DNA from: Candidatus Hydrogenedens sp.
Lineage (GTDB): Bacteria; Hydrogenedentota; Hydrogenedentia; Hydrogenedentales; Hydrogenedentaceae
Assembly: GCA_049968235.1 (NCBI GenBank)
Contig: JBMFRC010000012.1
Location: 32,001-96,000, forward strand
Direction: 5' to 3'
DNA length: 64,000 nt
The notes under the pieces are model-generated. The model had not been told where the DNA came from and made no database searches. It saw only the letters and a program-made list of their open reading frames with translations. Below, piece by piece: positions 3,621 through 62,044 of this stretch (within the stretch, counting starts at the first letter, position 1; each line of letters begins with the position of its first letter). Position numbers and translations under genes: made by a program.

Positions 3621-5843
3621 TTATCTTACATATTGTTTTCTGATATGTAATGCAGAACAGAAAGTCATTACACATACAATTAATACAATTGTTAATGTTG
3701 AACTAACAGGAACTTCATCTGAAATGATAACATGAAATTCATAAGTAGCATTGGTTTTCTGTCCATCATCATATTCACAAATGTATATTCCTGTATCCTC
3801 AATTTGTGCGTTGGGAATCCAGAGGGAACGGCAATGAGTATTTAATCCTCTTTCTTCTAAACTACCATTTAGTTTGGACCAATTAAATGAAGAATTCATA
3901 GATACAGGTTCCGGAACACGCAAGCATATATCAGACCCTGCTTTGAAAATTCCGCCCAATGTTGAAGAAGAATGGCATTCTTCACAATCCGAACCGGGAT
4001 ATACAACAGGATTTAATGCAGAATTAATATATGCCTGTTTTTTCTCTTCATAACTCATATGTGAACGGACAAAATATTCATATTCCTGTTTATTTGTCCA
4101 GCCATCCCCATCCGCATCACCATCAGGACCGAAAAATTGAGGTAGAAGTTGATAGAAGGTAGGAACAATGATATTTACATGTATATTGAAACTGGGGTCT
4201 ATAGCCTGTGCTGCTATAGAAATTACAGTCGGTATCATCGTGGATTCTTGATTACCTAAGGTCATGTATCCTGCTAACATTTGTGGCAAACCATAAAATA
4301 TGGTATTTACGATACTTCCTTCACCACCACAGTCTGTAATCATTCGTTGCATGTTTTGGTTGAAAGCATTCACAGCAATTTGATGACTTATACCGCCATT
4401 GGCAGTAAAATCAATAGATGTATTGTTATAACATTCCGTGATAAGTGAAAATTCTAACGAATCTAACATGCCATTTCCGGAAATAACAATAGGGTCTATA
4501 GATATTTGTCCACCATTCAAATCACATTCTTCAGGACTAAACGAAAGTCCTTCTGCTCCCTGGTCTCCTAATAAAACATAATATGCACTTAAATTTTCAT
4601 GTAAATATTGCATACCTGCTACAATTTCATGGTCAGGTTGCCTTATAAAATCATGATACTCCCAAACGCCGTTATAACAAAAATCTCCATTGCCTTCTGT
4701 ATTTCCCGTGCCGGGTCCTCCTAATGGTTTTGAAGTGCTATCTACAATAGTATCATCATCAATTACACAAAGTGTAACATTTCCTACTGCCCCTGCAGTA
4801 TCTACAACCACATTGTAAACTTGATTACCCTGAACATTATTGACAGATAAGATAGAAAGGGGAGAGGATAAACTATCCTTTGCATTAAAATCAGATGTAT
4901 CAACATTAGAAACAGGTTCACTAAAAGTTACAGAAAAAGTCATTGTATTTCCGTTAGAAGAAATACTATTAATTAAATAAACTTTTGGATAATCCAACCA
5001 TTGACTAATGAATTCCGACATGCATCTCTGGGCTAATATTTTATAACCTGCTTGAGATAAATGTATATCCCCATCAAACAGTCCATCAGGATGAACTAAT
5101 GAACATGGGTCTCCTCCGGGAAAAGGTGTATAGGTGGGATAATTACCTGGATAAGGGACAGAATGAGGGGGCAAATTTGTGGGAGTTGATGTCCCAAAAT
5201 GATATTGCATTAACCCAAGATTATGAACATAATAAACTCGTGGCTTGCTATCTGCCAGAGCCTTTTTGGCTTGTTCAAATCTTACAAAAGCATTTTGCTG
5301 GTCACATATTGAACAACCACCACGGTCTCTGCCTGCAAAAGTATATCCACAAAGAGCAACGCGAATATCGGGACGAACTGAAAGAATTTCATCAATAATA
5401 CCACTCATATAATTTACAATCGTATTAATAATGTATTCTTCCTGGGATGGATTAGAAAGCATATCACAATTCCAACGAGATGTTTGTGGAGTTCCTCGAA
5501 GGAAATCATTTCCTCCTAATGTTATCAATACAATATCAATTGTAGGATATTTTGCTAATTCTTCCTTTACATTTTGAATATAATTATATTCTTCAGGGTA
5601 AAATTCAAATGCTCGTGCTCCCATAATAGCAGTACGACTACCTATCTCTCTTAAATGTTCCATTCCAGGTGTTTCGTTAAAAATTTCTTTAAAGGTTCTA
5701 AATGCCCACATAAAACCAGTCCAACTATCACCGACTAATAGAACCCGTGGAATTTCCTCTTGAGAAAATGCAACAGAACTATCTATGAGAATAAGTAAAG
5801 ATAAGAAACAAATCAAGAATAAACTTAAAATACTATGTTTCAT
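3621..5843 (-). CDS. secreted multidomain SGNH/GDSL-family hydrolase with Ca-binding repeat, Ig-like domain and C-terminal TM anchor
   Basis: Signal peptide. SGNH blocks VLLVGDSWTG (I), LGGNDF (III) and DGDIHLS (V). A DGDADGDGWTNKQE thrombospondin-type-3-like Ca-binding repeat. A C-terminal Ig-like segment (GIYICEY...YEFHV) followed by a hydrophobic stretch LTIVLIVCVMTFCSAL. Confidence 0.65.
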   Translation of the reverse strand: MKHSILSLFLICFLSLLILIDSSVAFSQEEIPRVLLVGDSWTGFMWAFRTFKEIFNETPGMEHLREIGSRTAIMGARAFEFYPEEYNYIQNVKEELAKYPTIDIVLITLGGNDFLRGTPQTSRWNCDMLSNPSQEEYIINTIVNYMSGIIDEILSVRPDIRVALCGYTFAGRDRGGCSICDQQNAFVRFEQAKKALADSKPRVYYVHNLGLMQYHFGTSTPTNLPPHSVPYPGNYPTYTPFPGGDPCSLVHPDGLFDGDIHLSQAGYKILAQRCMSEFISQWLDYPKVYLINSISSNGNTMTFSVTFSEPVSNVDTSDFNAKDSLSSPLSILSVNNVQGNQVYNVVVDTAGAVGNVTLCVIDDDTIVDSTSKPLGGPGTGNTEGNGDFCYNGVWEYHDFIRQPDHEIVAGMQYLHENLSAYYVLLGDQGAEGLSFSPEECDLNGGQISIDPIVISGNGMLDSLEFSLITECYNNTSIDFTANGGISHQIAVNAFNQNMQRMITDCGGEGSIVNTIFYGLPQMLAGYMTLGNQESTMIPTVISIAAQAIDPSFNIHVNIIVPTFYQLLPQFFGPDGDADGDGWTNKQEYEYFVRSHMSYEEKKQAYINSALNPVVYPGSDCEECHSSSTLGGIFKAGSDICLRVPEPVSMNSSFNWSKLNGSLEERGLNTHCRSLWIPNAQIEDTGIYICEYDDGQKTNATYEFHVIISDEVPVSSTLTIVLIVCVMTFCSALHIRKQYVR

Positions 5844-5993
5844 TTTTGTCTCCTTTTTATTTATGTTATGTAATAAAAAACAATAATTAAACTAAATAAA
5901 TTATAGCAATAAAAAAAGAAAAAAATCAATAAAATATACTTAAGAGATATTTTTTTAATAAAAGAAAAAATTTTAATGAAAAGTATTTTAAAT

Positions 5994-6022
5994 TTGACAA
6001 GGAGTAAACAGTGTGCTATAAT
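5994..6022 (+). promoter_or_regulatory. sigma70-type promoter of the rex/hnd operon
   Basis: TTGACA (5994-5999), 17-bp spacer, extended -10 TGcTATAAT (6014-6022). This sits in an AT-rich divergent intergenic region about 80 bp upstream of the rex start. Confidence 0.5.
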
Positions 6023-6040
6023 TTGTTCATAAATTCACAA
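6023..6040 (+). promoter_or_regulatory. putative Rex operator 1 (TTGTTCATAAATTCACAA)
   Basis: 18-bp imperfect palindrome resembling the Rex box TTGTGAA-N4-TTCACAA (right half perfect, outer TTGT/ACAA conserved). It abuts the -10 box. Confidence 0.5.
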
Positions 6041-6066
6041 TTATACTTACAGGTAAGTATATAAAT

Positions 6067-6084
6067 TTGTTTGTAAATTCACAA
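6067..6084 (+). promoter_or_regulatory. putative Rex operator 2 (TTGTTTGTAAATTCACAA)
   Basis: Second copy of the same 22-nt direct repeat (20/22 identical to 6022-6043), 44 bp downstream of operator 1, between the promoter and the rex start. Confidence 0.45.
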
Positions 6085-6101
6085 TTAAAAGTATAAAGTA
6101 T

Positions 6102-6797
6102 ATGGTATCTGAGAAAACAGTAGAAAGATTAAGTTTATACCGCCGAATACTTCAACAATTGAGGGTCGAGAGTAAAGAAACTATAATGTCCCATGAACTT
6201 GCGAATATGTTACACATAAAGCCAGCACAGGTACGCAGGGATATTATGCAATTAGGTTATTCAGGAATACCTAATAGTGGTTATAGAATTCGACCTCTTT
6301 TAGAGAGTATTGCAAATTTTTTAGATTCCCCGTTGCCTCAGAGTGCTGTTTTAGTAGGTGTTGGACATTTAGGACTTGCGTTATTGGCTAACTTTGCAGG
6401 ACGATGGAGGCAATTAGCTATTCGTGCCTCTTTTGATAAAGACCCTGCAAAAGTAGGACAGACTTTTCATGGTTGTCGTTGTTATGCTATGTGTGATTTG
6501 CAAAAAGTAATTGCGGAGACAAAAAGTGTAGTAGGCATCCTGGCAATACCGGGTGAAAGTGCCCAATCTGTTTGTGACCTTCTTGTTCAGTCAGGTATTA
6601 GTGGCGTATTAAATTTTTCCCCATTGCGAATTAAAGTGCCTGATAATGTCTTTATAGAACATGTTGACCTTTCCGCTACGTTTGAAAAAGTTTCGTTCTT
6701 TGCAAGAAGAATGAAACATTATGCAGAAGAAGAAAAACGGAAAGTAGAAAATGAAATTACTGAGGGTGAATACGAAACATTAACAACCAATCAATAA
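6102..6797 (+). CDS. rex: redox-sensing transcriptional repressor Rex
   Basis: N-terminal wHTH (KTVERLSLYRRIL) and Rossmann GxGxxG (LVGVGHLGLAL), typical Rex architecture, with an acidic C-terminal tail. It sits at the head of an NADH-linked hydrogenase operon. Confidence 0.85.
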   Translation: MVSEKTVERLSLYRRILQQLRVESKETIMSHELANMLHIKPAQVRRDIMQLGYSGIPNSGYRIRPLLESIANFLDSPLPQSAVLVGVGHLGLALLANFAGRWRQLAIRASFDKDPAKVGQTFHGCRCYAMCDLQKVIAETKSVVGILAIPGESAQSVCDLLVQSGISGVLNFSPLRIKVPDNVFIEHVDLSATFEKVSFFARRMKHYAEEEKRKVENEITEGEYETLTTNQ

Positions 6798-6823
6798 ATA
6801 AAAAATTTTGTAGGAGATAGAAT

Positions 6824-7348
6824 ATGAATGAAGAATCAAAGCATGCGTGTATGGAAGAAGCAAGTGAAGAAGAACTGCTTGCTCGGCTTGATGAAGTAAT
6901 TGCAGAATATAAGGACAAGCCCGGTGCTCTTATTCCTGTTCTGCAGATTGCTCAGGCTATGTTTGGTTATCTACCCGAAAGTGCATTAAAAAAGATTAGT
7001 TTGGGACTGAACAAACCGTATAGTGAAGTTGCAGGTGTGGTAACATTTTACTCATTCTTTTCAACCCAGCCTCGTGGAAAACATATGATTCGTGTCTGTT
7101 TAGGAACTGCTTGTTATGTCCGTGGTGGCAAACAGGTTCTTTCTGCAATTAAGGATAAACTCCATATTGATGTTGGAGAGACCACGAAAGACCGTATGTT
7201 CTCTTTAGAGGTGGCTCGTTGTTTTGGTGCTTGTGGGCTTGCTCCTGCCATTATGGTGGATAACGATGTGCATCAACGGGTAAAACCTGCCCGAATTCAG
7301 GCTATTTTAGACCAGTATTTAGACAAAAACACAGAAAAAAATAAATAA
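6824..7348 (+). CDS. hndA: NuoE-like [2Fe-2S] thioredoxin-fold subunit of bifurcating hydrogenase (HndA)
   Basis: CLGTAC...CFGAC Cys pattern of NuoE/HoxE/HndA; AGGAGA RBS 8 nt upstream; order hndA-hndB-hndC-hydA. Confidence 0.85.
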   Translation: MNEESKHACMEEASEEELLARLDEVIAEYKDKPGALIPVLQIAQAMFGYLPESALKKISLGLNKPYSEVAGVVTFYSFFSTQPRGKHMIRVCLGTACYVRGGKQVLSAIKDKLHIDVGETTKDRMFSLEVARCFGACGLAPAIMVDNDVHQRVKPARIQAILDQYLDKNTEKNK

Positions 7349-7370
7349 GAAATAAATAAGGAGAAAAGCC

Positions 7371-7742
7371 ATGTCAAATATTATTCATTCTCCAGAAGAC
7401 CTTAATGCTTTACGAGAAAAGGCAATTAAGGACATTGAGATTCGTAATTCACATAAAGATTTGGTGATTACTGTTCACATGGGAACATGTGGTATTGCTG
7501 CGGGTGCCAGAGAAGTATTAAAAAATATCATCTCTGAAATTTCTGCTATAGGTATAACCAATGTTACAGTCCGTCAATCTGGATGTGCAGGTCTCTGCGA
7601 CCGTGAACCCATGATTACGGTTACTCATAAATCCTCCGGTTCTGAATATCGTTATGGAAAATTAAACACGGAAAAGATACGAGAAATTGTGAAACAGCAT
7701 ATTGCAGAAGGTAAACCTGTGATGGAATATTTAATTTCCTGA
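7371..7742 (+). CDS. hndB: small [2Fe-2S] ferredoxin-like subunit (HndB-like)
   Basis: 123 aa; HMGTCGIAAGA...CAGLCDREP thioredoxin-like [2Fe-2S] fold; size and position match HndB of tetrameric Hnd hydrogenases. Confidence 0.7.
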   Translation: MSNIIHSPEDLNALREKAIKDIEIRNSHKDLVITVHMGTCGIAAGAREVLKNIISEISAIGITNVTVRQSGCAGLCDREPMITVTHKSSGSEYRYGKLNTEKIREIVKQHIAEGKPVMEYLIS

Positions 7743-7825
7743 TGAAGAAATACAGGGTAAATTCGGATTCCCATAAAGTGGTTGAGATGAACATGTATAG
7801 CAAAATAAGAAAGAATGATATAGAA

Positions 7826-9271
7826 ATGAAAATGAACATATTACATCTATTTCTTATTTTATTTTTATGTTCATCCGCAACCTTTACTGAAATATCTGAT
7901 TGGGAAACCATCTCACTTTCGGATACAGGAGAAGCATTACAAAATCCCGGCATGGGATGGGTATTACATTTTTACGATAATGTTCCTGAAAATTATGGTT
8001 CTAAATTAGCCCCTTCAGATACTGTTGATGAATTCCCTGCCCTTTCAGTTATTTATTTGCGAATAGCATGGTCGTTTTTAGAACCTGAAGAAGGAAAGTA
8101 TAACTGGTCTATATTGGATACTCCTTCTCAACGATGGATTTCTAAAGGGAAACAAATTGCTTTGCGCATTACCTGTAGTGAAACTCCTATTCCATGGGCG
8201 ACACCAAAATGGGTTTATGAAGCAGGAGCCAAAGGTAATTTCTTCATTCCTACCCAGGGGATAAAAGAAAATGGGACACATTGGGAACCCGAATTTGATG
8301 ACCCTGTTTTCTTGGATAAGTTGGATAATTTTTTAGCAGTGTTAGCAAAGAGATATGATGAAAATCCGGAAATAGCCTTCATAGATATGGGTTCATTAGG
8401 AGTGTGGGGAGAAGGTCATGTATGGCATTCCACACAAAAACATATTTCGACGGAAACCATAAAAAAACACATTGATTTGCACATAAAGCACTTTAAAAAC
8501 ACAATAATTGCTCTAAATGATGACCTTATCACAAATGGGCAAAAATTGGATGTAATTCCCGAAGAGAAAAAAGAACTCCTCAATTATGCTATCAAAAATG
8601 GGTTAACACTTCGCGATGATAGTATTCTTGTTCAGGGTGGAGATAATGTATATTTTAGTGCAAGCCTTGCGGAATACTTCTGGCGAAATAGACCTATCAT
8701 TTTAGAATCTGAACATTATGGACCATCAAAGGCTGAAAGGCATTGGGGGGACGGAAGTAAATATTTACAGGCTGTAGAAGATTACCATGCAAGTTATACT
8801 TCTATTCATTGGTGGCCAAGGGAGTTTTTACAAGAAAACAAAGATTTGATAGATAAAATCAATCTTCGTTTGGGGTATCGTATTGTCCCTACCGAAGTTA
8901 AATGGCAAAAGACAGTAAAAATATCCGAGAAAAAATGGGATATATCCTACCGTTGGGCAAATAAAGGAGTGGCACCTTGTTATCGGGATGTATATCCCAT
9001 TATTACATGGAAAGATGAGAAAGGAGGAATTGTTGCTGTTTTTACAGATGAGACATTTAATCTCAAACAATTACCAATAGGGAAGCAGGATGAATTAAAA
9101 GAAATTGAGGTAAAAAAATCTTTTTTTATTCCTTTTTTATTGAAAGAAGGAAATTATACAGTATTCATTTCAGCGGGTTCTATTACGGGCACGCCTGAAA
9201 TTCAATTACCGTTAAACAACACAGACCATGAAAAAAGATATGTTATAGGTAAAGTTAATGTTGTTTTGTGA
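7826..9271 (+). CDS. secreted glycoside-hydrolase-like TIM-barrel protein (DUF4874/DUF4832, GH42-related)
   Basis: Motifs QNPGMGW and WSFLEPEEGKYNW (the W-x-LEP-x-EG-x-Y block of GH42-like/DUF4874 proteins). The track ORF starts at 7742 (overlapping the hndB stop), but a signal peptide MKMNILHLFLILFLCSSA begins at 7826, so that is taken as the start. The gene looks AT-richer than flanking hnd genes. Confidence 0.6.
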   Translation: MKMNILHLFLILFLCSSATFTEISDWETISLSDTGEALQNPGMGWVLHFYDNVPENYGSKLAPSDTVDEFPALSVIYLRIAWSFLEPEEGKYNWSILDTPSQRWISKGKQIALRITCSETPIPWATPKWVYEAGAKGNFFIPTQGIKENGTHWEPEFDDPVFLDKLDNFLAVLAKRYDENPEIAFIDMGSLGVWGEGHVWHSTQKHISTETIKKHIDLHIKHFKNTIIALNDDLITNGQKLDVIPEEKKELLNYAIKNGLTLRDDSILVQGGDNVYFSASLAEYFWRNRPIILESEHYGPSKAERHWGDGSKYLQAVEDYHASYTSIHWWPREFLQENKDLIDKINLRLGYRIVPTEVKWQKTVKISEKKWDISYRWANKGVAPCYRDVYPIITWKDEKGGIVAVFTDETFNLKQLPIGKQDELKEIEVKKSFFIPFLLKEGNYTVFISAGSITGTPEIQLPLNNTDHEKRYVIGKVNVVL

Positions 9272-9342
9272 AAAAAAATATAAAGATATAAATAAAAACT
9301 TCAGAAATGAAGCATACACAAGTTATGGAAAGGAGAAAAAAA

Positions 9343-12300
9343 ATGAGTCCATTTCGAAGTCATGTATTAATCTGTGCAGGTGCAGGATGCGTGGCATCAG
9401 GTTCGATGGAAGTAAGTTCCGCCTTTTCGGAGGCACTTGCCAAACATGGGCTAAATGAAGAAATTCAAGTAGTCCATACAGGATGTTTAGGACCCTGTGC
9501 TATTGGTCCCGTGGTCGTGATTTATCCAGATGCTATTTTTTATCAAGGTGTTAAAACAACAGATGTTGAAGATATTGTTGTTGAGCATCTGTTAAAAGGT
9601 CGGCCTGTTAGTCGCTTGAATTTCAAATCTACTACCACATCACAAATTATTCCTGCACTGCAGGAGATTGGTTTTTTCAAGCAACAGACAAAGATAGTTT
9701 TAAGGAACTGTGGTATTATAGACCCTACAAAAATTGAGGAGTATATTGCGAGAGATGGGTATCAGGCTTTAGCAAAAGTACTGACAAAAATGACTCCACA
9801 GCAGGTAGTAGAAGAAGTGAAAAAATCTGGACTTCGGGGAAGAGGTGGTGCAGGATTCCCAACAGGTATAAAGTGGGAGTTAACTCAAAAAGCCCACGGA
9901 GATAAGAAATATGTTCTTTGTAATGCTGATGAAGGTGACCCGGGCGCATTTATGGACAGAAGTGTTTTGGAAGGTGACCCCCATAGTGTTATTGAAGCTA
10001 TGATTATAGCAGGATATGCCATTGGTTCTGACCAGGGATATATTTATGTTCGAGCAGAATATCCTTTAGCGGTAGAGAGATTAAATATAGCGATAAAGCA
10101 AGCCAGAGAATATGGTTTGTTAGGTAAGAATATTATGGGAACGAATTTTAATTTCGACCTTGAAATACGAATGGGTTCAGGTGCTTTTGTGTGTGGAGAA
10201 GAAACCGCATTGATGCGTTCTATCGAAGGGAAACGCGGAGAACCCAGACCCCGTCCACCGTTCCCTGCATATAAAGGTTTATGGGAAAAACCCAGTTTAT
10301 TAAATAATGTAGAAACCTATGCAAACATCCCTGTAATTATATTAAAAGGTGCTGATTGGTTTGCTTCCATAGGAACAGGTAAAAGTAAAGGAACAAAAGT
10401 GTTTGCCTTAGCAGGTGCTGTAAACAACACAGGATTGGTCGAAATTCCGATTGGTACACCATTAGGTGAAATTATTTATGATATTGGCGGTGGAATTCCG
10501 CGAGGCAAACAATTTAAGGCAGCGCAAATTGGAGGTCCTTCCGGCGGTTGTATTCCAAAACAACATCTGAATGTGCCGGTAGATTACGAGTCATTACAGG
10601 AATTAGGAGCGATTATGGGTTCCGGTGGATTAATTGTTATGGATGAAGACACATGTATGGTCGATATGGCTCGTTTCTTCCTTGACTTTGTTCAGGATGA
10701 GTCATGTGGAAAATGTGTCCCATGCCGGGTCGGAACGAAAAGAATGTTGGAAATTGTGACAAGGATTTGTGAGGGTCGGGGAGAAGAAGGCGATATTGAA
10801 AAACTTATTGAATTAGGACAACAGATTAAAGATGCATCGTTATGTGGATTAGGGCAGACAGCTCCAAACCCTGTTCTTTCTGCAATACGGCACTTCCGTG
10901 ATGAATTTGAAATTCATATTCGTGAACATAAATGTCCGGCGGGTGTCTGTCCATCTCTTGTTCGTGCTCCTTGTATGAGTGCTTGCCCGGCAAATGTTTA
11001 CATTCCGGGTTTTGTCTCATTAATATCTGAAAAACGATATGCGGAAGCACTTCGTGTGCATCGTGACCAGAACCCCTTTGCATCTGTATGTGCCCGTGTG
11101 TGTTTCCATACTTGTGAGGACAAATGTAGAAGAGCTACTCTGGATGAAGCGGTATCCATACGCGGATTGAAGCGATTTATGGTAGAGCAAGAAGTTACAA
11201 TACAACTACCTGAAATTCGTGAAAATGAACAAAATCTTCGCAAAAAGGTGGCTATTATAGGAGCAGGTCCTGCAGGTCTAACCTGTGCTTATTTCCTTGC
11301 ACGATTAGGCTATCAACCCCGTGTTTTTGAATCTGCACCCAGGCCCGGCGGTATGTTAGTTCAAACAATTCCCGCTTATCGGTTACCCCGAGAAGAATTG
11401 GCTCGAGAAATTCGTATGATAGAAAGAATGGGCGTTGTCATAGAAACTGAAAAAGCCTTAGGTCGTGATTTTACATTACAAAGCCTTCGTGATGATGGAT
11501 ATGAGGCTATTTTTCTCGGAATAGGTGCTCCATCAGGTCAAAAATTGAGAATTCCAGGCGAAGATGCGGATGGCGTTGTCGAAGCCATAGACTTCCTTCG
11601 TGAATACAATCTCCGTGGTTCTGTTCCTGTAGGGAAAAATGTTGTTATTATAGGAGGTGGTAATGCAGCTATTGATGCGGCAAGAACTGCCATTCGTTTA
11701 GGAGCAAAAAAAGCAACGATTCTTTACCGCAGAACAAGAGAAGAGATGCCTGCGTATAAAGAAGAGATCGAAGAAGCAGTTAATGAAGGTGTTATTTTAA
11801 AAATGTTAGTAACTCCACTGGAGATTTTGACAGAAAACGGAAAAGTTGTTGGTGTAAAATGTCAACACATGTGGTTAGGAGAATATGACCGTTCCGGTAG
11901 AAGAAGACCTGAAGCCAAAAAGGGTGAAGAACCCTTTGTTGAAGAAGCAGACCAGGTTATTGCAGCAATAGGGCAAACTGTTGATTTAAAACGTTACCTG
12001 GATGGATTAAATGTTAAGTTAACACCTTCTGGTTTCTTGTGGGTAGACCAATTATATGGTCAGACCTCTATTGAATGGTTATTTGCAGGTGGTGATATTA
12101 GTTCAGGTCCTTCTTCCGTAGCAGAAGCAATCGGTGCTGGTGAAAGAGCTGCAGTTGGAATTGATAAGTATCTTACTGGAGAAGAACATGCTTTCTGGCG
12201 CGAACCCTATATGGTAGATACAGAATTTGACCCAGATTCCGACCCGGTAGATTTCCCAAGAGCAAAAATGAAACTTTTACCTGTTGAAAAGAGGGTACAC

Positions 12301-12414
12301 AACTTTAATGAAGTTGAAATCCCGTTTACGGAAACATTAGCGGTAAGAGAGGCACGCCGTTGCTTACGTTGTGATTATCGTGAAACAAAAATAAGTTTAA
12401 ATACACAACAATAA
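9343..12414 (+). CDS. hndC: NuoF-like flavoprotein subunit (HndC) fused to a GltD/NfnB-like NAD(P)H:FAD oxidoreductase domain
   Basis: N-terminal Trx-like [2Fe-2S] (CAGAGC...CLGPC). NuoF core GRGGAGFPTGIKW (FMN) and ESCGKCVPCRVG ([4Fe-4S]). From about 10930: GltD-type Cys clusters (CPAGVCP...CMSACP, CARVCFHTCEDKC) and FAD/NAD(P) fingerprints VAIIGAGPAGL, VVIIGGGNAAID. The track ORF starts at 9307, but AGGAGA sits 8 nt before the ATG at 9343. Confidence 0.8.
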   Translation: MSPFRSHVLICAGAGCVASGSMEVSSAFSEALAKHGLNEEIQVVHTGCLGPCAIGPVVVIYPDAIFYQGVKTTDVEDIVVEHLLKGRPVSRLNFKSTTTSQIIPALQEIGFFKQQTKIVLRNCGIIDPTKIEEYIARDGYQALAKVLTKMTPQQVVEEVKKSGLRGRGGAGFPTGIKWELTQKAHGDKKYVLCNADEGDPGAFMDRSVLEGDPHSVIEAMIIAGYAIGSDQGYIYVRAEYPLAVERLNIAIKQAREYGLLGKNIMGTNFNFDLEIRMGSGAFVCGEETALMRSIEGKRGEPRPRPPFPAYKGLWEKPSLLNNVETYANIPVIILKGADWFASIGTGKSKGTKVFALAGAVNNTGLVEIPIGTPLGEIIYDIGGGIPRGKQFKAAQIGGPSGGCIPKQHLNVPVDYESLQELGAIMGSGGLIVMDEDTCMVDMARFFLDFVQDESCGKCVPCRVGTKRMLEIVTRICEGRGEEGDIEKLIELGQQIKDASLCGLGQTAPNPVLSAIRHFRDEFEIHIREHKCPAGVCPSLVRAPCMSACPANVYIPGFVSLISEKRYAEALRVHRDQNPFASVCARVCFHTCEDKCRRATLDEAVSIRGLKRFMVEQEVTIQLPEIRENEQNLRKKVAIIGAGPAGLTCAYFLARLGYQPRVFESAPRPGGMLVQTIPAYRLPREELAREIRMIERMGVVIETEKALGRDFTLQSLRDDGYEAIFLGIGAPSGQKLRIPGEDADGVVEAIDFLREYNLRGSVPVGKNVVIIGGGNAAIDAARTAIRLGAKKATILYRRTREEMPAYKEEIEEAVNEGVILKMLVTPLEILTENGKVVGVKCQHMWLGEYDRSGRRRPEAKKGEEPFVEEADQVIAAIGQTVDLKRYLDGLNVKLTPSGFLWVDQLYGQTSIEWLFAGGDISSGPSSVAEAIGAGERAAVGIDKYLTGEEHAFWREPYMVDTEFDPDSDPVDFPRAKMKLLPVEKRVHNFNEVEIPFTETLAVREARRCLRCDYRETKISLNTQQ

Positions 12415-12431
12415 TAAAAGGAGAATAAGCC

Positions 12432-14204
12432 ATGCCAAAATTAACTATAGATGGAATTCCCGTAGAAGTTCCGGAAGGAACAACAATACTTCAAGCGGCA
12501 AAGCAAATAGGATTAAAAATACCGACACTTTGTTATCTTGAAGAAGTTCAAGCCATCGGTGCCTGTCGTGTTTGCGTTGTTGAAGTTGAAGGAGCACGAA
12601 CTTTGGTCGCTTCTTGTGTTGCTCCTGTTGCGGAAGGAATGAAAGTCCATACAAATTCAAAAAGAGCCCGTGAGGCACGAAAAACAGTTGTAGAATTGTT
12701 ACTATCCGACCATGATGGCGATTGCCAGATTTGTGTTCGAAATGAAGATTGTGAACTTCAGGAATTGGCACGAACACTTGGGATAAAGGAAATTCGCTAT
12801 CAAGGTGAGAAGAGAAAACGGATTGTGGATGAAAGCACTCCCGCTGTTGTTCGTGATACATCGAAATGTGTCTTATGTAGAAGATGTATAACGGTTTGCA
12901 ATGAGGTTCAGGGTGTTGGCGGACTGTTCCCACAAAATCGTGGCTTTGAAACGGTAATAGGTCCCGCATTTTGTAGTGATTTGGATGATGTCGTATGTGT
13001 TCAGTGTGGTCAATGTAGTGCGGTTTGTCCTGTGGGTGCTATTGTAGAAAGAGACCAGATTGCGGATGTCTTTTCTGCATTAGATGACCCGACAAAAACA
13101 GTCGTTGTCCAGACAGCCCCTGCAATTCGTGCCGCATTGGGAGAATGTTTTGGTTTACCACCCGGAACTTTAGTAACAGGGAAGATGGTTACCGCACTTC
13201 GTAGACTGGGTTTCCATGCCGTTTTTGATACTAACTTTGCCGCTGACCTTTGTATTATGGAAGAAGGTACAGAACTGCTAACTCGATTGAAGAAAAAACT
13301 GGTAGATGGGGAGAATATTGCTCTTCCTATGTTTACCAGTTGTTCTCCGGGGTGGATTAAGTTTTTAGAACATTTCTACCCGGATATGATTCCAAATGTA
13401 TCTACATGCAAATCCCCACAGCAAATGTTTGGTGCTATAGCAAAGACCTATTATTCCAAGAAAATTGGTAAGAAACCCGAAGATATTGTTGTTGTTTCTA
13501 TTATGCCCTGTACAGCGAAGAAATATGAACATCAGCGTCCCGAGATGAACAGTTCCGGTGTTCGTGATGTGGACTATGTGCTTACAACGCGTGAATTGGG
13601 TCGGATGATAAAACAGGCAGGCATTGATTTTGTAAATCTACCCGATGACAAGCAAGACTCACCATTAGGACTATCCTCTGGTGCTGCGGATATTTTTGCG
13701 AATACCGGGGGTGTTATGGAAGCGGCAATTCGAACTGTTTATGAAATAGTAACAGGACGCGAATTACCATTCGATGGACTTCATGTTGCTCCTATCGAAG
13801 GATTAGAAGGAATCAAGGAAGCCTCCTTGAAGATAGAAAAATGTGTGCCTGAATGGTCTTTCTTAGAAGGGGCTACCGTAAATGTTGCTGTGGCTCATGG
13901 ATTGGGTAATGCCAGAGCATTAATAGAGCGAGTTCGCTCAGGTGAAAAGGCGTATCACTTTATAGAAATTATGACCTGTCCCGGTGGATGTATTGGTGGA
14001 GGAGGACAACCTCGCTTTACAGATAATTCAGTTCGTCTTGCTCGTATTCAGGCCATATACAAAGAGGATGAAGGGAAACAACTTCGTAAGTCCCATGTAA
14101 ATCCTGACATACAAAAATTGTATAAGGAATTTTTAGGACATCCGAATAGTGAAGTTTCACATCATCTATTACATACGCATTACAATCCGAGAACAAAAGT
14201 ATAA
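12432..14204 (+). CDS. hydA: [FeFe]-hydrogenase catalytic subunit, M3-type (HndD/HydA)
   Basis: N-terminal plant-type [2Fe-2S]; His-ligated [4Fe-4S] (HDGDCQICVRNEDC); two ferredoxin-like CxxCxxCxxxCP motifs; H-cluster motifs L2 MPCTAKKYE and L3 EIMTCPGGCIGGGGQP; L1 is present as FTSCSPGW, which is non-canonical. Confidence 0.9.
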   Translation: MPKLTIDGIPVEVPEGTTILQAAKQIGLKIPTLCYLEEVQAIGACRVCVVEVEGARTLVASCVAPVAEGMKVHTNSKRAREARKTVVELLLSDHDGDCQICVRNEDCELQELARTLGIKEIRYQGEKRKRIVDESTPAVVRDTSKCVLCRRCITVCNEVQGVGGLFPQNRGFETVIGPAFCSDLDDVVCVQCGQCSAVCPVGAIVERDQIADVFSALDDPTKTVVVQTAPAIRAALGECFGLPPGTLVTGKMVTALRRLGFHAVFDTNFAADLCIMEEGTELLTRLKKKLVDGENIALPMFTSCSPGWIKFLEHFYPDMIPNVSTCKSPQQMFGAIAKTYYSKKIGKKPEDIVVVSIMPCTAKKYEHQRPEMNSSGVRDVDYVLTTRELGRMIKQAGIDFVNLPDDKQDSPLGLSSGAADIFANTGGVMEAAIRTVYEIVTGRELPFDGLHVAPIEGLEGIKEASLKIEKCVPEWSFLEGATVNVAVAHGLGNARALIERVRSGEKAYHFIEIMTCPGGCIGGGGQPRFTDNSVRLARIQAIYKEDEGKQLRKSHVNPDIQKLYKEFLGHPNSEVSHHLLHTHYNPRTKV

Positions 14205-14223: not shown

Positions 14224-14247
14224 GGGGAGTGTGAGTGAGCACTCCCC
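14224..14247 (+). terminator. weak hairpin after hydA (possible attenuating terminator)
   Basis: GGGGAGTG/CACTCCCC 8-bp stem with an 8-nt loop, but no downstream U-tract. Confidence 0.3.
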
Positions 14248-59642: not shown

Positions 59643-60518
59643 CTATTCCATTGATTCTGTCCCACTTATTACTTCCAACATCTCTTTCGTGATAAGTTCT
59701 TGCCTGGTTTTATTAAAAACTACTCTCAGATTTTGTAAAGTTTCCTCTGCATTTTTAGTTGCAACTTCCATGGCTTGCCTTCGGGCTAATTGCTCGCAGG
59801 CTAATGATTCATGAAAAATACGATGCATCTCGGAAATCAAAAATAATTCACAAGTTCGCGTTACGACATCATCGATATGGGGTTCTATAAGCCAATTATA
59901 TTGCTTTATATTTTCAGGATTATCCTGATTTCCCTTAATAGTGAGAGGTAGTAATTGCTCCATTTCTATTTTTGTAGTATAAGAAAGACCTAATTTTGTA
60001 TAAATAATAAATACAGAATCGGTAACACCATTTATAACATACCTTGATAATTCATGAACCAAAGATGAGACTTTATCCAGAGAATAATCTTCAAAAAAAT
60101 TACGATATGATTTCTTTACGGATATATGGTGGTATTTAAATGCGTCATTACCTTTATTACCTAAAGAAATTAAATCTATATTTTTACCGTGAAACATATT
60201 TTTTAATATATCTTTTGTCTTTTGGACAATAGCAGTATTAAAACCACCGCATAAACCGTGGTCACTTGTGATTACCAGAATGGATATATTTTGAATTGTT
60301 TTTCGGGGCGAAATTAGAGGATGATTGGGTTGAAAGTCAGATAAAGTATTAAGATATTGCCATAATTTATTTAATTCATCAGGAAGAATCCGACTTACAA
60401 TAAGGGCGTTTTGGGCTCGTTTGAGCCGAACCGTCGCAACCATTTTAATTGCTTTTGTTATTTTCTGGGTGTTTTCGATTGTATTTATTTTGTTCCGTAA
60501 CTCTTGGATGCTACTCAT
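59643..60518 (-). CDS. atpG: F1Fo ATP synthase gamma subunit
   Basis: N-terminus [28 protein letters not shown] is a typical gamma subunit; the start is taken at 60518 (the track ORF begins 21 nt upstream and would overlap atpA). Confidence 0.9.
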
Positions 60519-62044
60519 AAATGTGCACCTTCTTTCCATTTCTCAGAAAGGAAACGATGAATAAGGTTATCCATCTGATTTTGAATTTCATCTGTCCATT
60601 TGTTATTTGTTCCGAGATATTCATAAAGAGAGGGATTTTCTGTTTTTATATAGGCAATTAATTCCTTTTCAAATCGAGGTAATGCATTCACTGATATATT
60701 ATCAAGCATTCCGGAAATACCAGCATGAATAATAATAATTTCATCGGCTAATGGAAGGGTTTCAAAACGATTTTGAACCAAAATTTTTGTAAGCCTTTTA
60801 CCCCTTTCCAATTGAGCCTTTGAGGATTCATCAAGTTCACTTCCAAATTGAGCAAATACCTCTAATTCACGGTACTGTGCCATTAAAACACGCAATGTTC
60901 CCGCAATCTTTTTCATAATAGGGGTTTGTGCAGAACCACCTACACGGGATACACTAATTCCAGGATTTATCGCTGGTCGTATCCCTGAATGAAATAGAGA
61001 TGATTCCAAGTATATTTGTCCATCTGTTATCGAAATCACATTTGTTGGAATGTAGGCAGAAACATCTCCTTCCTGGGTTTCAATAATAGGAAGAGCAGTT
61101 AAAGTTCCCCCCCCTAAAGAAGGGTGAAGACAAGCAGATCTTTCCAGTAAACGGCTGTGTAAATAGAAAATATCACCCGGGTAAGCTTCCCTTCCCGGTG
61201 GTCTCCTTAGTAATAGAGATATTTGACGATAAGCACTTGCATGTTTTGATAAATCATCATAAACAATAAGAACATGCTTACCTTTATCACGAAAATACTC
61301 TCCAATCGCACAACCTGAAAAAGGAGCCAAATATTGCATTGGGGCAGGTTCTGAAGCCGTTGCGGAAACAACAACTGTATATTTCATTGCACCGTAGTTT
61401 ATAAGGTCACTTACAATTTGTGCCACTGTTGAACGCTTTTGTCCTATAGCCACATAGATACAAATAATATCTTTATCTTTTTGATGTATGATAGTATCGA
61501 TGGCTATGGATGTTTTACCTGTTTGTCTATCTCCAATTATTAATTCACGTTGTCCTCTACCGATAGGTACCATAGAATCAATGGCTTTTATACCTGTATG
61601 TAGGGGTACAGTTACGGGTGTTCTATCAATAATGCCCGGGGCAATTCTTTCAACTGGATAATGTTCTTCCGCTTGAATAGGTCCTCCAGTATCAACAGGC
61701 TCACCAATGGCATTAACTACACGACCCAAAATGGATTCTCCAACAGGAACAGAGGATATTCTCCATGTTCTTTTAGCAACATCACCTTCTTTTATTAGTT
61801 CGTAATCGCCGAGAAGTATAATCCCTACATGGTCTTCTTCTAAACTAAAAACAATTCCTTTCACTCCATGGGGCAAAACAATTAATTCCCCTATAAAAGC
61901 ATTTTCTAATCCAAATACACGAGCAATCCCATCACCGCTTTGAATAACTGTTCCTGTTTCTGAAACATCAATAGCACTCGAATATAGACTTATTTGTTGT
62001 TTGATAAGGTTGGTAATCTCATCAATTCGCGGATTATATGACAT
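60515..62044 (-). CDS. atpA: F1Fo ATP synthase alpha subunit
   Basis: Walker [10 protein letters not shown]; 509 aa. Confidence 0.95.

What the first reader, a model, noticed from the sequence alone, without database searches (positions are those of the whole stretch)
5994..6101. Near-consensus promoter abutted by two Rex-box-like operators upstream of rex and the hydrogenase operon
Seen directly: TTGACA-N17-TGcTATAAT (5994-6022) is immediately followed by TTGTTCATAAATTCACAA (6023-6040) and, 44 bp later, TTGTTTGTAAATTCACAA (6067-6084). The two are 20/22-identical direct copies of a 22-mer. The right half-sites are perfect TTCACAA, as in the Rex operator TTGTGAA-N4-TTCACAA; the left half-sites are degenerate. 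An operator overlapping the transcription start and a second one in the 5'-UTR is the classic Rex auto-repression layout. It would place rex-hndAB(C)-hydA, and possibly the maturases, under NADH/NAD+ control.
Basis: partly seen in the sequence, partly recalled or inferred. Interest (0 to 1): 0.5.

Follow-up and report, generated by a model that had tools for sequence, protein, structure and literature searches.

The report
Rex-controlled hydrogenase promoter with extra operator
A strong promoter in front of a redox-sensor gene (rex) and an [FeFe]-hydrogenase operon carries two conserved binding sites for that sensor, which is an ordinary layout, plus a previously unnoticed third site between them that looks like the target of a second, TetR-type repressor.

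Summary
TTGACA-N17-TGcTATAAT (5994-6022) is the only 12/12 promoter match in the window. It is followed by TTGTTCATAAATTCACAA (6023-6040) and TTGTTTGTAAATTCACAA (6067-6084), which lie inside a 24-nt direct repeat found nowhere else in the 64 kb.

The downstream ORF is a genuine Rex. After it come hndA, hndB, a DUF4832-like ORF, a NuoF::GltD fusion and hydA. The organism is a close relative of Ca. Hydrogenedens terephthalaticus.

- **Rex reading supported.** The promoter and boxes are conserved in 17 related Hydrogenedentota-type loci. In other phyla, rex-hydABC loci carry canonical TTGTGAA-N4-TTCACAA boxes at the same place. A matrix built only from those foreign boxes ranks box 1 first in the window and box 2 fourth. 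This is an ordinary layout, known from Caldicellulosiruptor and others.
A perfect palindrome, TATACTTACAGGTAAGTATA (6042-6061), sits between the boxes and is as conserved as they are. It fits the ATAC-N10-GTAT operator of the TetR repressor MbdR. GC-rich orthologues differ by 1 nt from validated Thermus PfmR sites. In metagenomes, 33 of 120 loci with this motif have a TetR gene directly beside it.
- **Inference.** The operon is under dual control by Rex and an unlinked, unidentified TetR-type repressor. Nothing has been tested by binding assays.

The parts
5994..5999 (+). -35 hexamer TTGACA
   Evidence: Part of the 12/12 promoter match. TGACA is invariant in L001-L007. GC-rich relatives have TTGCA at the same place.
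6014..6022 (+). Extended -10, TGcTATAAT
   Evidence: TG-N-TA-AAT is conserved in L001-L007, and TGnTATAGT in GC-rich relatives. This is the only perfect TTGACA-N17-TATAAT in the window. A transcription start near 6029-6031 is inferred, not mapped.
6023..6040 (+). Rex box 1, TTGTTCATAAATTCACAA, abutting the -10 and covering the inferred transcription start
   Evidence: 2 mismatches to TTGTGAANNNNTTCACAA. Rank 1 of 127,966 positions with a matrix built from 34 canonical boxes of other phyla. Orthologous sites are present in the related loci L001-L011, L015, L021, L026, L029, L050 and L069, with one extra base in the L008 spacer.
6042..6061 (.). Perfect palindrome TATACTTAC-AG-GTAAGTATA, core 6044-6059. 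The stretch 6043-6060 reads ATAC-N10-GTAT. Candidate TetR-family operator.
   Evidence: Single copy in the window. The core is conserved in 17 related loci although the flanks vary. It fits the MbdR operator ATAC-N10-GTAT (PMC4424350). Orthologues in L050 and L069 differ by 1 nt from validated PfmR/TTHB023 sites (PMC7022988). In metagenomes, 33 of 120 loci with this motif have an adjacent TetR gene.
6067..6084 (+). Rex box 2, TTGTTTGTAAATTCACAA, in the 5' leader, ending 17 nt before the rex ATG
   Evidence: 3 mismatches to the consensus. Fourth distinct site in the window with the foreign matrix, and second with the clade matrix at 23.6 against 11.3 for the next site. Present in L001-L003 and L005-L008, degenerate in L004, absent in the more distant relatives.
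6020..6043 (+). Copy 1 of the 24-nt direct repeat that contains box 1
6064..6087 (+). Copy 2 of the 24-nt direct repeat that contains box 2, 22/24 identical to copy 1
   Evidence: In L003 the two 18-mers are identical, which suggests that box 2 arose by duplication of box 1.
6102..6797 (+). rex, redox-sensing repressor, 231 aa
   Evidence: Pfam Put_DNA-bind_N + CoA_binding. Full-length matches to Rex structures 2VT2, 1XCB and 3IKT. 94% identical to the Rex of Ca. Hydrogenedens terephthalaticus.
6824..14204 (+). Hydrogenase genes downstream of rex: hndA-like (6824-7348), hndB-like (7371-7742), DUF4832/GH42-like ORF (7742-9271), NuoF::GltD fusion (9307-12414) and [FeFe]-hydrogenase HydA (12432-14204)
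   Evidence: Pfam. Gaps between genes are at most 35 nt. The gene order is conserved in related loci.
14224..14247 (+). Strong hairpin 20 nt after the hydA stop codon; probable 3' boundary or partial terminator of the rex-hydA unit
   Evidence: dG -18.2 kcal/mol, z = -4.4. There is no U-tract on the + strand.

Best explanation
**Shown by sequence and comparison**
- A strong sigma-70-type promoter (5994-6022) drives rex and the hndA-hndB-ORF-hndC::gltD-hydA genes.
- Two Rex-type operators follow it. Box 1 abuts the -10 and covers the predicted transcription start. Box 2 lies in the leader just before the rex start codon.
- A conserved ATAC-N10-GTAT palindrome (6042-6061) sits between the boxes. 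Its centre is 20 bp from the centre of box 1 and 24 bp from that of box 2.

**Inferred mechanism**
- At a low NADH/NAD+ ratio, the Rex dimer occupies box 1 and blocks RNA polymerase. It also occupies box 2, where it acts as a roadblock.
- When NADH rises, Rex is released, and the operon for the NADH-linked [FeFe] hydrogenase and rex itself is switched on. This is negative autoregulation.
- The palindrome is most likely the operator of a TetR-family repressor of the MbdR/PfmR operator class, encoded elsewhere in the genome. Full expression would then need both a reduced NAD pool and that repressor's unknown ligand.
For: **Promoter**
- It is a 12/12 match with a TG extension and is unique in the window. 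It is conserved in relatives.

**Rex**
- rex is present in cis.
- The boxes are unique in the window and far above background with a clade matrix: 26.0 and 23.6 against 11.3 for the next site.
- They rank first and fourth with a matrix built only from canonical boxes of other phyla.
- Box 1 is conserved across the whole clade. Many rex loci of other phyla have canonical boxes at the equivalent place.
- There is experimental precedent for Rex repressing [FeFe]-hydrogenase genes, hydG and itself (PMC6391272). A Rex site is also predicted at the hnd operon of Solidesulfovibrio fructosivorans (PMC10084766).

**Palindrome**
- The 16-nt core is conserved in 17 loci, down to about 50% Rex identity and across GC contents, while the spacers around it vary.
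- It fits the footprinted MbdR operator ATAC-N10-GTAT.
- L050 TACCGACCGTTAGGTA differs by 1 nt from the Thermus TTHA0987 site TACCGACCGTTCGGTA. L069 TTTACCGACCGGTAGG differs by 1 nt from the TTHB023(-153) site TTTACCGACCGGTTGG. Both Thermus sites bind PfmR with nanomolar affinity.
- A metagenome scan for the motif returned 120 loci, of which 33 have a TetR gene next to the site. In 26 the site is just upstream of the tetR start. In 7 it lies about 50 nt after the tetR stop. The same model gave no hit in 651 kb of control DNA.
- The centre of the motif is strongly biased to CCGG or ACGG: 45 of 125 sites, against a chance rate of 1/32 for each.
- Those TetR proteins have MbdR (4UDS) and PfmR (3VPR) among their best solved relatives.
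Against: - No binding data exist for any of the three sites.
- Each box taken alone is no better than a chance match to the symmetric Rex consensus. The left half-sites deviate: TTGTTCA and TTGTTTG against TTGTGAA.
- The same core, TGTGA-N6-TCACA, is also the CRP-type core.
- No TetR gene is found in the 64-kb window or in about 590 kb of rex-flanking DNA from relatives. The proposed second repressor is therefore unidentified.
- The window's own palindrome has the centre CAGG, not the CCGG/ACGG/CTGG/CCAG/CTAG centres seen next to TetR genes. It matches only 9 of 13 specified positions of the PfmR consensus.
- A palindrome in a transcribed leader is also an RNA hairpin, so an RNA-level role is not excluded.
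- The transcription start is predicted, not mapped.
Confidence: 0.6

Rival explanations
1. The palindrome 6042-6061 works as an RNA hairpin in the 5' leader, for mRNA stability, processing or binding of an RNA-binding protein. On this reading it is not a DNA operator, and only Rex regulates the promoter.
For: - It lies inside the predicted transcript, about +13 to +33.
- One stem position switches from C-G to U-A between GC-rich and AT-rich relatives.
- GC-rich relatives have a second, sequence-variable hairpin about 20 nt downstream, which hints at leader structure.
- No cognate TetR gene was found nearby.
Against: - The predicted leader folds no better than shuffled sequence: -7.4 kcal/mol, z = 0.11.
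- No Rfam family matches at or near its threshold; only two weak sRNA matches far below their gathering scores.
- What is conserved is sequence, not pairing. C-A, A.G and G.A oppositions occur at L010, L011, L026, L050 and L069.
- The covariation is not beyond the controls.
- Near-identical versions of this 19-20-mer sit beside TetR genes in unrelated bacteria, with mixed TACC/TACT and GGTA/AGTA halves.
Confidence: 0.2
2. The two boxes are sites for a CRP/FNR-family regulator, whose core is also TGTGA-N6-TCACA, rather than for Rex.
For: The Rex consensus contains the CRP-type core with identical spacing; this rests on my own knowledge of both motifs. The right half-sites here contain TCACA.
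Against: - The boxes accompany a rex gene in loci from several phyla: Hydrogenedentota, Planctomycetota, Latescibacterota and Lentisphaerota. This is the standard signature of an autoregulated factor.
- The flanking T and A of TTGTGAA/TTCACAA are conserved.
- Rex sites at hydrogenase and rex promoters have experimental precedent.
Confidence: 0.05
3. Only box 1 is a working Rex operator. Box 2 is a recent duplicate, one copy of a 24-nt repeat, with little or no regulatory role.
For: - Box 2 exists only in the closest relatives (L001-L003, L005-L008) and is degenerate in L004 (TTGTTCATAATTTTATAA).
- More distant members of the clade manage with one box.
- Box 2 has 3 mismatches and the poorer left half.
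Against: - The right half TTCACAA and the left TTTGTT/ATCGTT of box 2 are retained in L001-L003 and L005-L008, although the spacer between them varies freely. That pattern points to selection.
- Many rex loci in other phyla also carry two boxes.
Confidence: 0.12
4. The boxes and the palindrome are chance AT-rich repeats with no regulatory function.
For: The region is very AT-rich. Single consensus matches with 2-3 mismatches are expected about 9 times per 64 kb.
Against: - The 24-mer pair has a chance expectation of 0.01.
- All three elements are conserved in position and sequence in relatives with GC-rich genomes.
- Neither motif recurs elsewhere in the window.
Confidence: 0.03

Closest known systems
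Rex operator (ROP) and autoregulated rex-hydrogenase operons, for example Caldicellulosiruptor bescii Rex (PMC6391272) and the Rex regulons reconstructed by comparative genomics (Ravcheev et al. 2012, as cited in that paper)
   Same: - An 18-bp box of the TTGTGAA-N4-TTCACAA type overlaps the promoter.
- The rex gene comes first in, or is adjacent to, an NADH-linked [FeFe]-hydrogenase operon.
- Negative autoregulation is inferred.
- The Rex protein has the wHTH + Rossmann architecture.
   Different: - The boxes are asymmetric. The left half T[TC]GTT is conserved in all 22 compiled clade sites, and the right half is the canonical TTCAC[AG]A.
- The two boxes are 44 bp apart with another operator between them.
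- The lineage, Hydrogenedentota, has no experimental Rex data.
- The Rex protein carries a charged C-terminal tail of about 25 aa.
MbdR operator of Azoarcus sp. CIB: TetR family, ATAC-N10-GTAT, inducer 3-methylbenzoyl-CoA (PMC4424350)
   Same: - An 18-bp palindrome with ATAC and GTAT arms 10 bp apart.
- A position at or just after the transcription start, consistent with repression.
- MbdR is among the best solved relatives of the TetR proteins found beside this motif in metagenomes.
   Different: - No TetR gene is linked to the site here.
- The inner 10 bp and the effector are unknown.
- The regulated genes encode a hydrogenase, not an aromatic-degradation pathway.
PfmR (TTHB023) operator of Thermus thermophilus HB8: TetR family, TACCGACCGNTNGGTN (Agari et al. 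2012, as cited in PMC7022988)
   Same: The orthologous palindromes of GC-rich relatives (L050, L069) differ by a single base from PfmR sites validated at nanomolar affinity. They share the TACC...GGTA repeat structure that allows two overlapping registers.
   Different: - The window's own AT-rich version, TACTTACAGGTAAGTA, matches only 9 of 13 specified positions.
- PfmR controls phenylacetate and fatty-acid genes and is autoregulated from an adjacent site. No such gene is seen here.

Membership tests
Rex operator / autoregulated Rex regulon member | 18-bp inverted repeat matching TTGTGAA-N4-TTCACAA | tested here: inconclusive
   - The right halves are perfect. The left halves match 5/7 (box 1) and 4/7 (box 2).
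- Matches with 2-3 mismatches are not above chance on their own.
- With a matrix built from canonical boxes of other phyla, the boxes rank first and fourth in the window.
Rex operator / autoregulated Rex regulon member | A Rex protein (wHTH + NAD(H)-binding Rossmann domain) is encoded by the organism | tested here: met
   - Pfam PF06971 + PF02629.
- Full-length matches to the Rex structures 2VT2, 5ZZ5, 3KEO, 1XCB, 3IKT and 3WG9.
- A GVGHLG glycine motif is present in the sequence.
Rex operator / autoregulated Rex regulon member | The site is positioned so as to repress, overlapping the promoter or transcription start of the target | tested here: met
   - Box 1 starts at the base after the -10.
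- The same arrangement occurs in all clade members.
- The transcription start itself is inferred.
Rex operator / autoregulated Rex regulon member | The site is conserved upstream of orthologous genes in related genomes | tested here: met
   - Box 1 is present in the related loci L001-L011, L015, L021, L026, L029, L050 and L069 (in L008 with one extra base in the spacer).
- Canonical boxes are present in many other rex loci, most of them with hydABC downstream.
Rex operator / autoregulated Rex regulon member | Rex binds the site and NADH releases it | not testable with these tools
   This needs EMSA or footprinting with purified protein, with and without NADH and NAD+.
TetR-family operator of the MbdR/PfmR class | Palindrome ATAC-N10-GTAT (MbdR), or a match to TACCGACCGNTNGGTN (PfmR) | tested here: met
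   - 6043-6060 reads ATAC-TTACAGGTAA-GTAT, an exact fit to the MbdR formula.
- The PfmR consensus is matched 13/13 by the orthologous sites in L050 and L069, but only 9/13 by the window's own site.
TetR-family operator of the MbdR/PfmR class | The same motif is associated with TetR-family genes elsewhere | tested here: met
   - 33 of 120 metagenome loci with the motif have a TetR_N gene immediately adjacent.
- The same model gave no hit in 651 kb of control DNA.
- Pfam confirms TetR_N for the five TetR ORFs submitted, from L138, L151, L101 and L154.
TetR-family operator of the MbdR/PfmR class | A cognate TetR repressor is encoded next to the operator or in the same genome | tested here: not met
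   - No TetR-like ORF was found in the 64-kb window or in L001-L080, even at E<=50.
- The rest of the genome could not be searched, so only linkage is excluded, not presence.
TetR-family operator of the MbdR/PfmR class | The repressor binds the site and a ligand releases it | not testable with these tools
   This needs the repressor to be identified, followed by binding assays.
Structured cis-regulatory leader RNA (riboswitch or attenuator) | A stable, conserved secondary structure with covariation, or a match to a known RNA family | tested here: not met
   - No Rfam match near a family threshold; only two weak sRNA matches far below their gathering scores.
- The leader folds with z = 0.11.
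- Only one stem pair covaries, and non-standard oppositions occur in several relatives.

The most novel reading that the evidence does not exclude
In one Hydrogenedentota clade, the clade whose hydrogenase has HndB and a NuoF::GltD fusion, the hydrogenase operon works as a two-input gate. One input is Rex, reading NADH/NAD+. The other is an unlinked TetR-family repressor of the MbdR/PfmR operator class, whose characterised members respond to, or regulate the metabolism of, acyl- or aryl-CoA thioesters. Its operator lies on the same DNA face between two Rex boxes. Hydrogen production would then be licensed only when a specific substrate-derived metabolite is present and the NAD pool is also reduced. 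Lipid or glycerol catabolism is the lifestyle proposed for these bacteria. The conserved asymmetry of the Rex boxes could reflect interplay between the two repressors.
Probability: 0.3. Interest if true: 0.5.

Novelty: new member of a known kind. Interest (0 to 1): 0.35.

Why it matters
Rex control of NADH-linked [FeFe] hydrogenases is established in Firmicutes and predicted in other groups, so the main finding is ordinary. It extends that logic to the uncultured phylum Hydrogenedentota, described as syntrophic lipid and glycerol degraders of anaerobic digesters. It also supplies a clade-specific Rex matrix that can be used to map the regulon in their genomes.

The added value is the conserved TetR-type operator nested between the Rex boxes. 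If it is real, hydrogen output in these syntrophs would be tied to a second metabolic signal besides redox state. It would also give a handle, a defined 20-bp operator, for fishing out the responsible regulator and its ligand.

The metagenome data further suggest that ATAC-N10-GTAT / TACC(T/G)ACCGGTAGGTA is a widely shared operator class. It is used by several TetR subfamilies in different phyla.

Tried and rejected
1. **Exact-protein look-up of the window's Rex.** It is not on record.
2. **Rfam search of 5850-6250 at a permissive E-value.** It gave only two meaningless sRNA hits far below threshold.
3. **RNA-structure reading of the leader.** The fold is no better than shuffles and covariation is weak. 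I kept this only as a rival.
4. **My first window search for TTGTT-N7-TTCACAA.** It used the wrong spacer, N7 instead of N6, and is uninformative. The matrix scan replaced it.
5. **Search for other copies of either motif in the window.** I found none for the 24-mer or the palindrome. The best extra Rex-like sites (61024, 59262) lie inside ORFs and score no better than expected. No Rex regulon member other than this operon is visible in the 64 kb.
6. **Search for a linked TetR gene.** I used tblastn and an HMM on the window and on 80 rex loci. Both found nothing.
7. **Tracing the Hydrogenedentota repressor through the two TetR subfamilies found beside the motif.** They turned out to be Desulfuromonadaceae/Geobacteraceae proteins and Treponema proteins. 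This shows the breadth of the operator class, not the cognate factor.
8. **Inferring the effector from neighbouring genes.** The targets differ by subfamily: alpha-amylase, an AMP-binding enzyme, a peroxiredoxin-like protein and others. No effector can be inferred.
9. **Ravcheev et al. 2012.** The paper is not held in the library. Its consensus is cited through PMC6391272.
Full report
**1. The observation**

- TTGACA lies at 5994-5999, followed by a 17-nt spacer whose last three bases are TGC, then TATAAT at 6017-6022.
- TTGTTCATAAATTCACAA lies at 6023-6040.
- TTGTTTGTAAATTCACAA lies at 6067-6084.

The promoter scan scores the promoter 12/12 with a TG extension. It is the only perfect TTGACA-N17-TATAAT in the 64 kb.

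The two boxes sit inside a 24-nt direct repeat, 6020-6043 and 6064-6087, that is 22/24 identical with a spacing of 44. That 24-mer occurs nowhere else in the window even with three mismatches, against 0.01 expected.

One caution applies. A match to the symmetric consensus TTGTGAANNNNTTCACAA with 2-3 mismatches is not significant by itself. Six were found against 9.0 +/- 3.1 expected.

**2. Gene context and organism**

The ORF at 6102-6797 is a Rex.
- It has the Pfam domains Put_DNA-bind_N and CoA_binding.
- It gives full-length matches to every solved Rex structure, best E=3e-33 to Bacillus subtilis Rex 2VT2.

The genes that follow, with gaps of at most 35 nt, are:

| Coordinates | Product |
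|---|---|
| 6824-7348 | HndA-type [2Fe-2S] protein |
| 7371-7742 | small HndB-like protein |
| 7742-9271 | 509-aa DUF4832/GH42-like ORF |
| 9307-12414 | 1035-aa NuoF::GltD fusion |
| 12432-14204 | 590-aa [FeFe] hydrogenase |

A strong hairpin without a U-tract follows hydA: 14224-14247, -18.2 kcal/mol, z = -4.4. After it come a receiver-only response regulator, hydG, an aspartase-like gene, hydF and a hydE-like radical-SAM gene.

The closest Rex proteins belong to Candidatus Hydrogenedens. The genome locus L001 is Ca. Hydrogenedens terephthalaticus, at 94% identity. Members of this phylum have been described as lipolytic, syntrophic glycerol degraders in methanogenic reactors (Nobu et al. 2015, as summarised in PMC6121073).

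**3. Comparative test of the Rex reading**

A scan of one genome per species returned 80 rex loci. In about 65 of them rex is followed by hndA/nuoE, nuoF and hydA homologues. These loci come from Hydrogenedentota, Planctomycetota, Latescibacterota, Lentisphaerota and other groups.

Outside the window's clade, many loci carry a canonical symmetric box, [TC]TGTGAA-N4-TTCACA[AG], 50-90 nt upstream of rex. Nine loci have two boxes exactly 17 nt apart start to start.

Inside the window's clade the picture is as follows. The clade is defined by HndB plus the NuoF::GltD fusion and comprises L001-L011, L015, L021, L026, L029, L050 and L069.
- The promoter is conserved: TTGACA/TGnTATAAT in the AT-rich genus and TTGCA/TGnTATAGT in GC-rich members.
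- A box follows it within 0-10 nt.

The boxes of this clade share a fixed asymmetry. The left half is T[TC]GTT and the right half is TTCAC[AG]A, always in the same orientation (one search lists the 22 sites). L069 has a fully canonical TTGTGAGCCGGTTCACAA at the same position.

A weight matrix made only from 34 canonical boxes of other phyla ranks box 1 first and box 2 as the fourth distinct site among 127,966 window positions. A matrix from the clade's orthologous sites, with the window excluded, gives 26.0 and 23.6 against 11.3 for the next best site.

Box 2 is found only in the closest relatives (L001-L003, L005-L008). In L003 it is identical to box 1, so it probably arose by duplication.

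Rex of Caldicellulosiruptor bescii binds upstream of [FeFe]-hydrogenase genes, hydG and rex itself (PMC6391272). A Rex site is also predicted at the hnd operon of Solidesulfovibrio fructosivorans (PMC10084766). Binding and NADH sensitivity remain inferred.

**4.

Between the boxes lies a perfect palindrome, TATACTTAC-AG-GTAAGTATA, at 6042-6061. Its dyad is 20 bp from the centre of box 1 and 24 bp from that of box 2.

It is as conserved as the boxes. The 16-nt core TAC[CT][TG]A[AC]C[GT]GTA[AG]GTA is present once, and only in the rex leader, in all 17 related loci examined. These include GC-rich genomes with about 50% Rex identity: TACCTACCGGTAGGTA, TACCTAACGGTAGGTA and TACCGACCGGTAGGTA. L008 has a shorter variant, TACCGGTCGGTA.

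The distance from box 1 is fixed in the genus but varies in the distant members, at 38-49 bp centre to centre. The elements therefore look like separate modules.

**5. What the palindrome is**

No Rfam family matches near its threshold. The predicted leader folds no better than shuffled sequence, with z = 0.11. Pair counting shows one covarying position, but C-A, A.G and G.A oppositions occur in several relatives. This does not look like a selected RNA stem.

I scanned the metagenome collection for TATACYTAMNNGTARGTAT. The results were these.
- The central bases were far from random. Of 125 sites, 35 had the centre CCGG and 10 had ACGG, against 1/32 expected for each.
- Several contigs carried 2-5 copies just upstream of gene starts. 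L138 has five and L121 has three.
- In L138 two copies precede a TetR-family gene (Pfam TetR_N).
- tblastn and an HMM of the TetR N-terminal domain then found a TetR gene directly beside the motif in 33 of the 120 loci.
  - In 26 the motif is 0-130 nt upstream of the tetR start, the classic autoregulatory position.
  - In 7 it is about 50 nt after the tetR stop. In the three of these where the downstream gene was examined, it encodes an alpha-amylase-family protein.
- The same HMM gives no hit, even at E<=50, in the window plus the 80 rex loci, 651 kb in total.
- These TetR proteins have MbdR (4UDS), PfmR (3VPR) and DarR among their closest solved relatives.

The literature fits this reading.
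- The footprinted operator of MbdR, a 3-methylbenzoyl-CoA-responsive TetR repressor, is ATAC-N10-GTAT (PMC4424350). The stretch 6043-6060 reads ATAC-TTACAGGTAA-GTAT.
- PfmR (TTHB023) of Thermus thermophilus has the predicted consensus TACCGACCGNTNGGTN and validated nanomolar sites (PMC7022988).
  - TTTACCGACCGGTTGG differs by 1 nt from L069 TTTACCGACCGGTAGG.
  - The TTHA0987 double site contains TACCGACCGTTCGGTA, which differs by 1 nt from L050 TACCGACCGTTAGGTA.

I therefore read the palindrome as an operator of the MbdR/PfmR class of TetR-family repressors.

The weak points are these.
- No TetR gene is linked to the operon.
- The two subfamilies I traced belong to Desulfuromonadaceae/Geobacteraceae and to Treponema.
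- The targets differ by subfamily, so the effector cannot be inferred.
- The window's own centre, CAGG, is not among the centres seen next to TetR genes.

**6. Mechanism proposed**

The anatomy and its conservation are shown. The following steps are inferred.
- Transcription starts around 6029-6031, inside box 1.
- Rex bound at box 1 excludes RNA polymerase. Rex bound at box 2 blocks elongation just before the rex start codon.
- NADH releases Rex. This induces the hydrogenase that can dispose of reducing equivalents, and it also induces Rex itself.
- A TetR-type repressor bound at 6042-6061 would add a second, independent lock about +13 to +33 from the start.

Whether the maturase genes are co-regulated depends on read-through of the hairpin after hydA. 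No Rex-like box precedes them.

**7. Verdict**

It is a new member of a well-known kind, not a new kind.

The nested, conserved TetR-type operator is a real addition with modest interest. It points to dual control of a hydrogenase operon in an uncultured syntrophic lineage, but the second regulator is not yet identified.

My confidence in the Rex part is about 0.8, in the TetR-operator part about 0.55, and in the combined explanation 0.6.

Noticed in passing
window 7742-9271: A 509-aa ORF with weak DUF4832 and Glyco_hydro_42 matches sits inside the hydrogenase operon, between hndB and the NuoF::GltD gene. Its start overlaps the hndB stop codon. It is present in the genus-level relatives L001-L007 (64-76% identity) and absent from L008-L011, where hndB is followed directly by nuoF::gltD. 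A glycosidase-like protein inside a hydrogenase operon is odd.
   Followed up: partly
window 9307-12414: The HndC/NuoF-type subunit is fused to a GltD/NfnB-like NAD(P)H-flavin oxidoreductase module (Fer4_20 + Pyr_redox_2), giving 1035 aa in total. The fusion is conserved at 69-97% identity across the clade that also has the palindrome. It suggests a hydrogenase that also talks to NADP(H).
   Followed up: no
L013, L016, L028, L034, L060, L067, L068, L070, L072 (upstream of rex): In nine rex loci of other phyla, two canonical Rex boxes lie exactly 17 nt apart start to start, so they overlap by one base. This layout differs from the 44-nt spacing in the window.
   Followed up: no
L009, L021, L026, L029, L050, L069 (about 10-20 nt downstream of the palindrome): GC-rich relatives share a further leader element, AACTTTTGTT, followed by a hairpin whose sequence varies but whose pairing is kept: GTTCAG-N4-CTGAAC in L050 and L069, and GTTAG..CTAAAC in L009 and L021. 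It occupies the place of box 2 in the AT-rich genus. Its nature is unknown.
   Followed up: partly
window 6085-6101 and 6805-6823: rex has no recognisable Shine-Dalgarno sequence (TTAAAAGTATAAAGTAT before the ATG). The next gene, hndA, has GTAGGAGATAGAAT before its ATG. This may keep Rex translation low relative to the enzyme subunits.
   Followed up: no
window 6711-6797 (Rex residues about 204-231): Rex carries a charged C-terminal tail of about 25 aa (KHYAEEEKRKVENEITEGEYETLTTNQ). It aligns only in the closest relatives L001-L005. More distant Rex proteins in the set mostly align only to about residue 200-215.
   Followed up: no
window 14224-14247: A very stable hairpin, GGGGAGTG-N8-CACTCCCC (-18.2 kcal/mol, z = -4.4), lies 20 nt after the hydA stop with no U-tract on the coding strand. 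On the opposite strand it would look like an intrinsic terminator.
   Followed up: partly
L138 (3762, 3805, 4811, 7102, 7134); L121 (6872, 7953, 7984); L154, L147, L174: Metagenome contigs show small regulons built on the perfect palindrome TATACCTACCGGTAGGTATA. In L138, five copies precede a TetR gene, an alpha-amylase-family gene and a methyltransferase gene. A tetR-operator-alpha-amylase unit recurs in Treponema-type contigs.
   Followed up: partly
window 5900-5929 (- strand): A 10/12 promoter-like site with a TG extension faces the divergent 740-aa GDSL-lipase-like gene (3621-5843, - strand). The 258-bp intergenic region therefore probably holds two back-to-back promoters. The Rex boxes lie downstream of the rex promoter only.
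   Followed up: no
window 61024-61041: CTGTTATCGAAATCACAT scores almost as high as box 1 with the canonical Rex matrix (10.0 against 10.1). It lies inside an ORF (60515-62044, - strand) and scores poorly with the clade matrix, so it is probably a chance match.
   Followed up: partly
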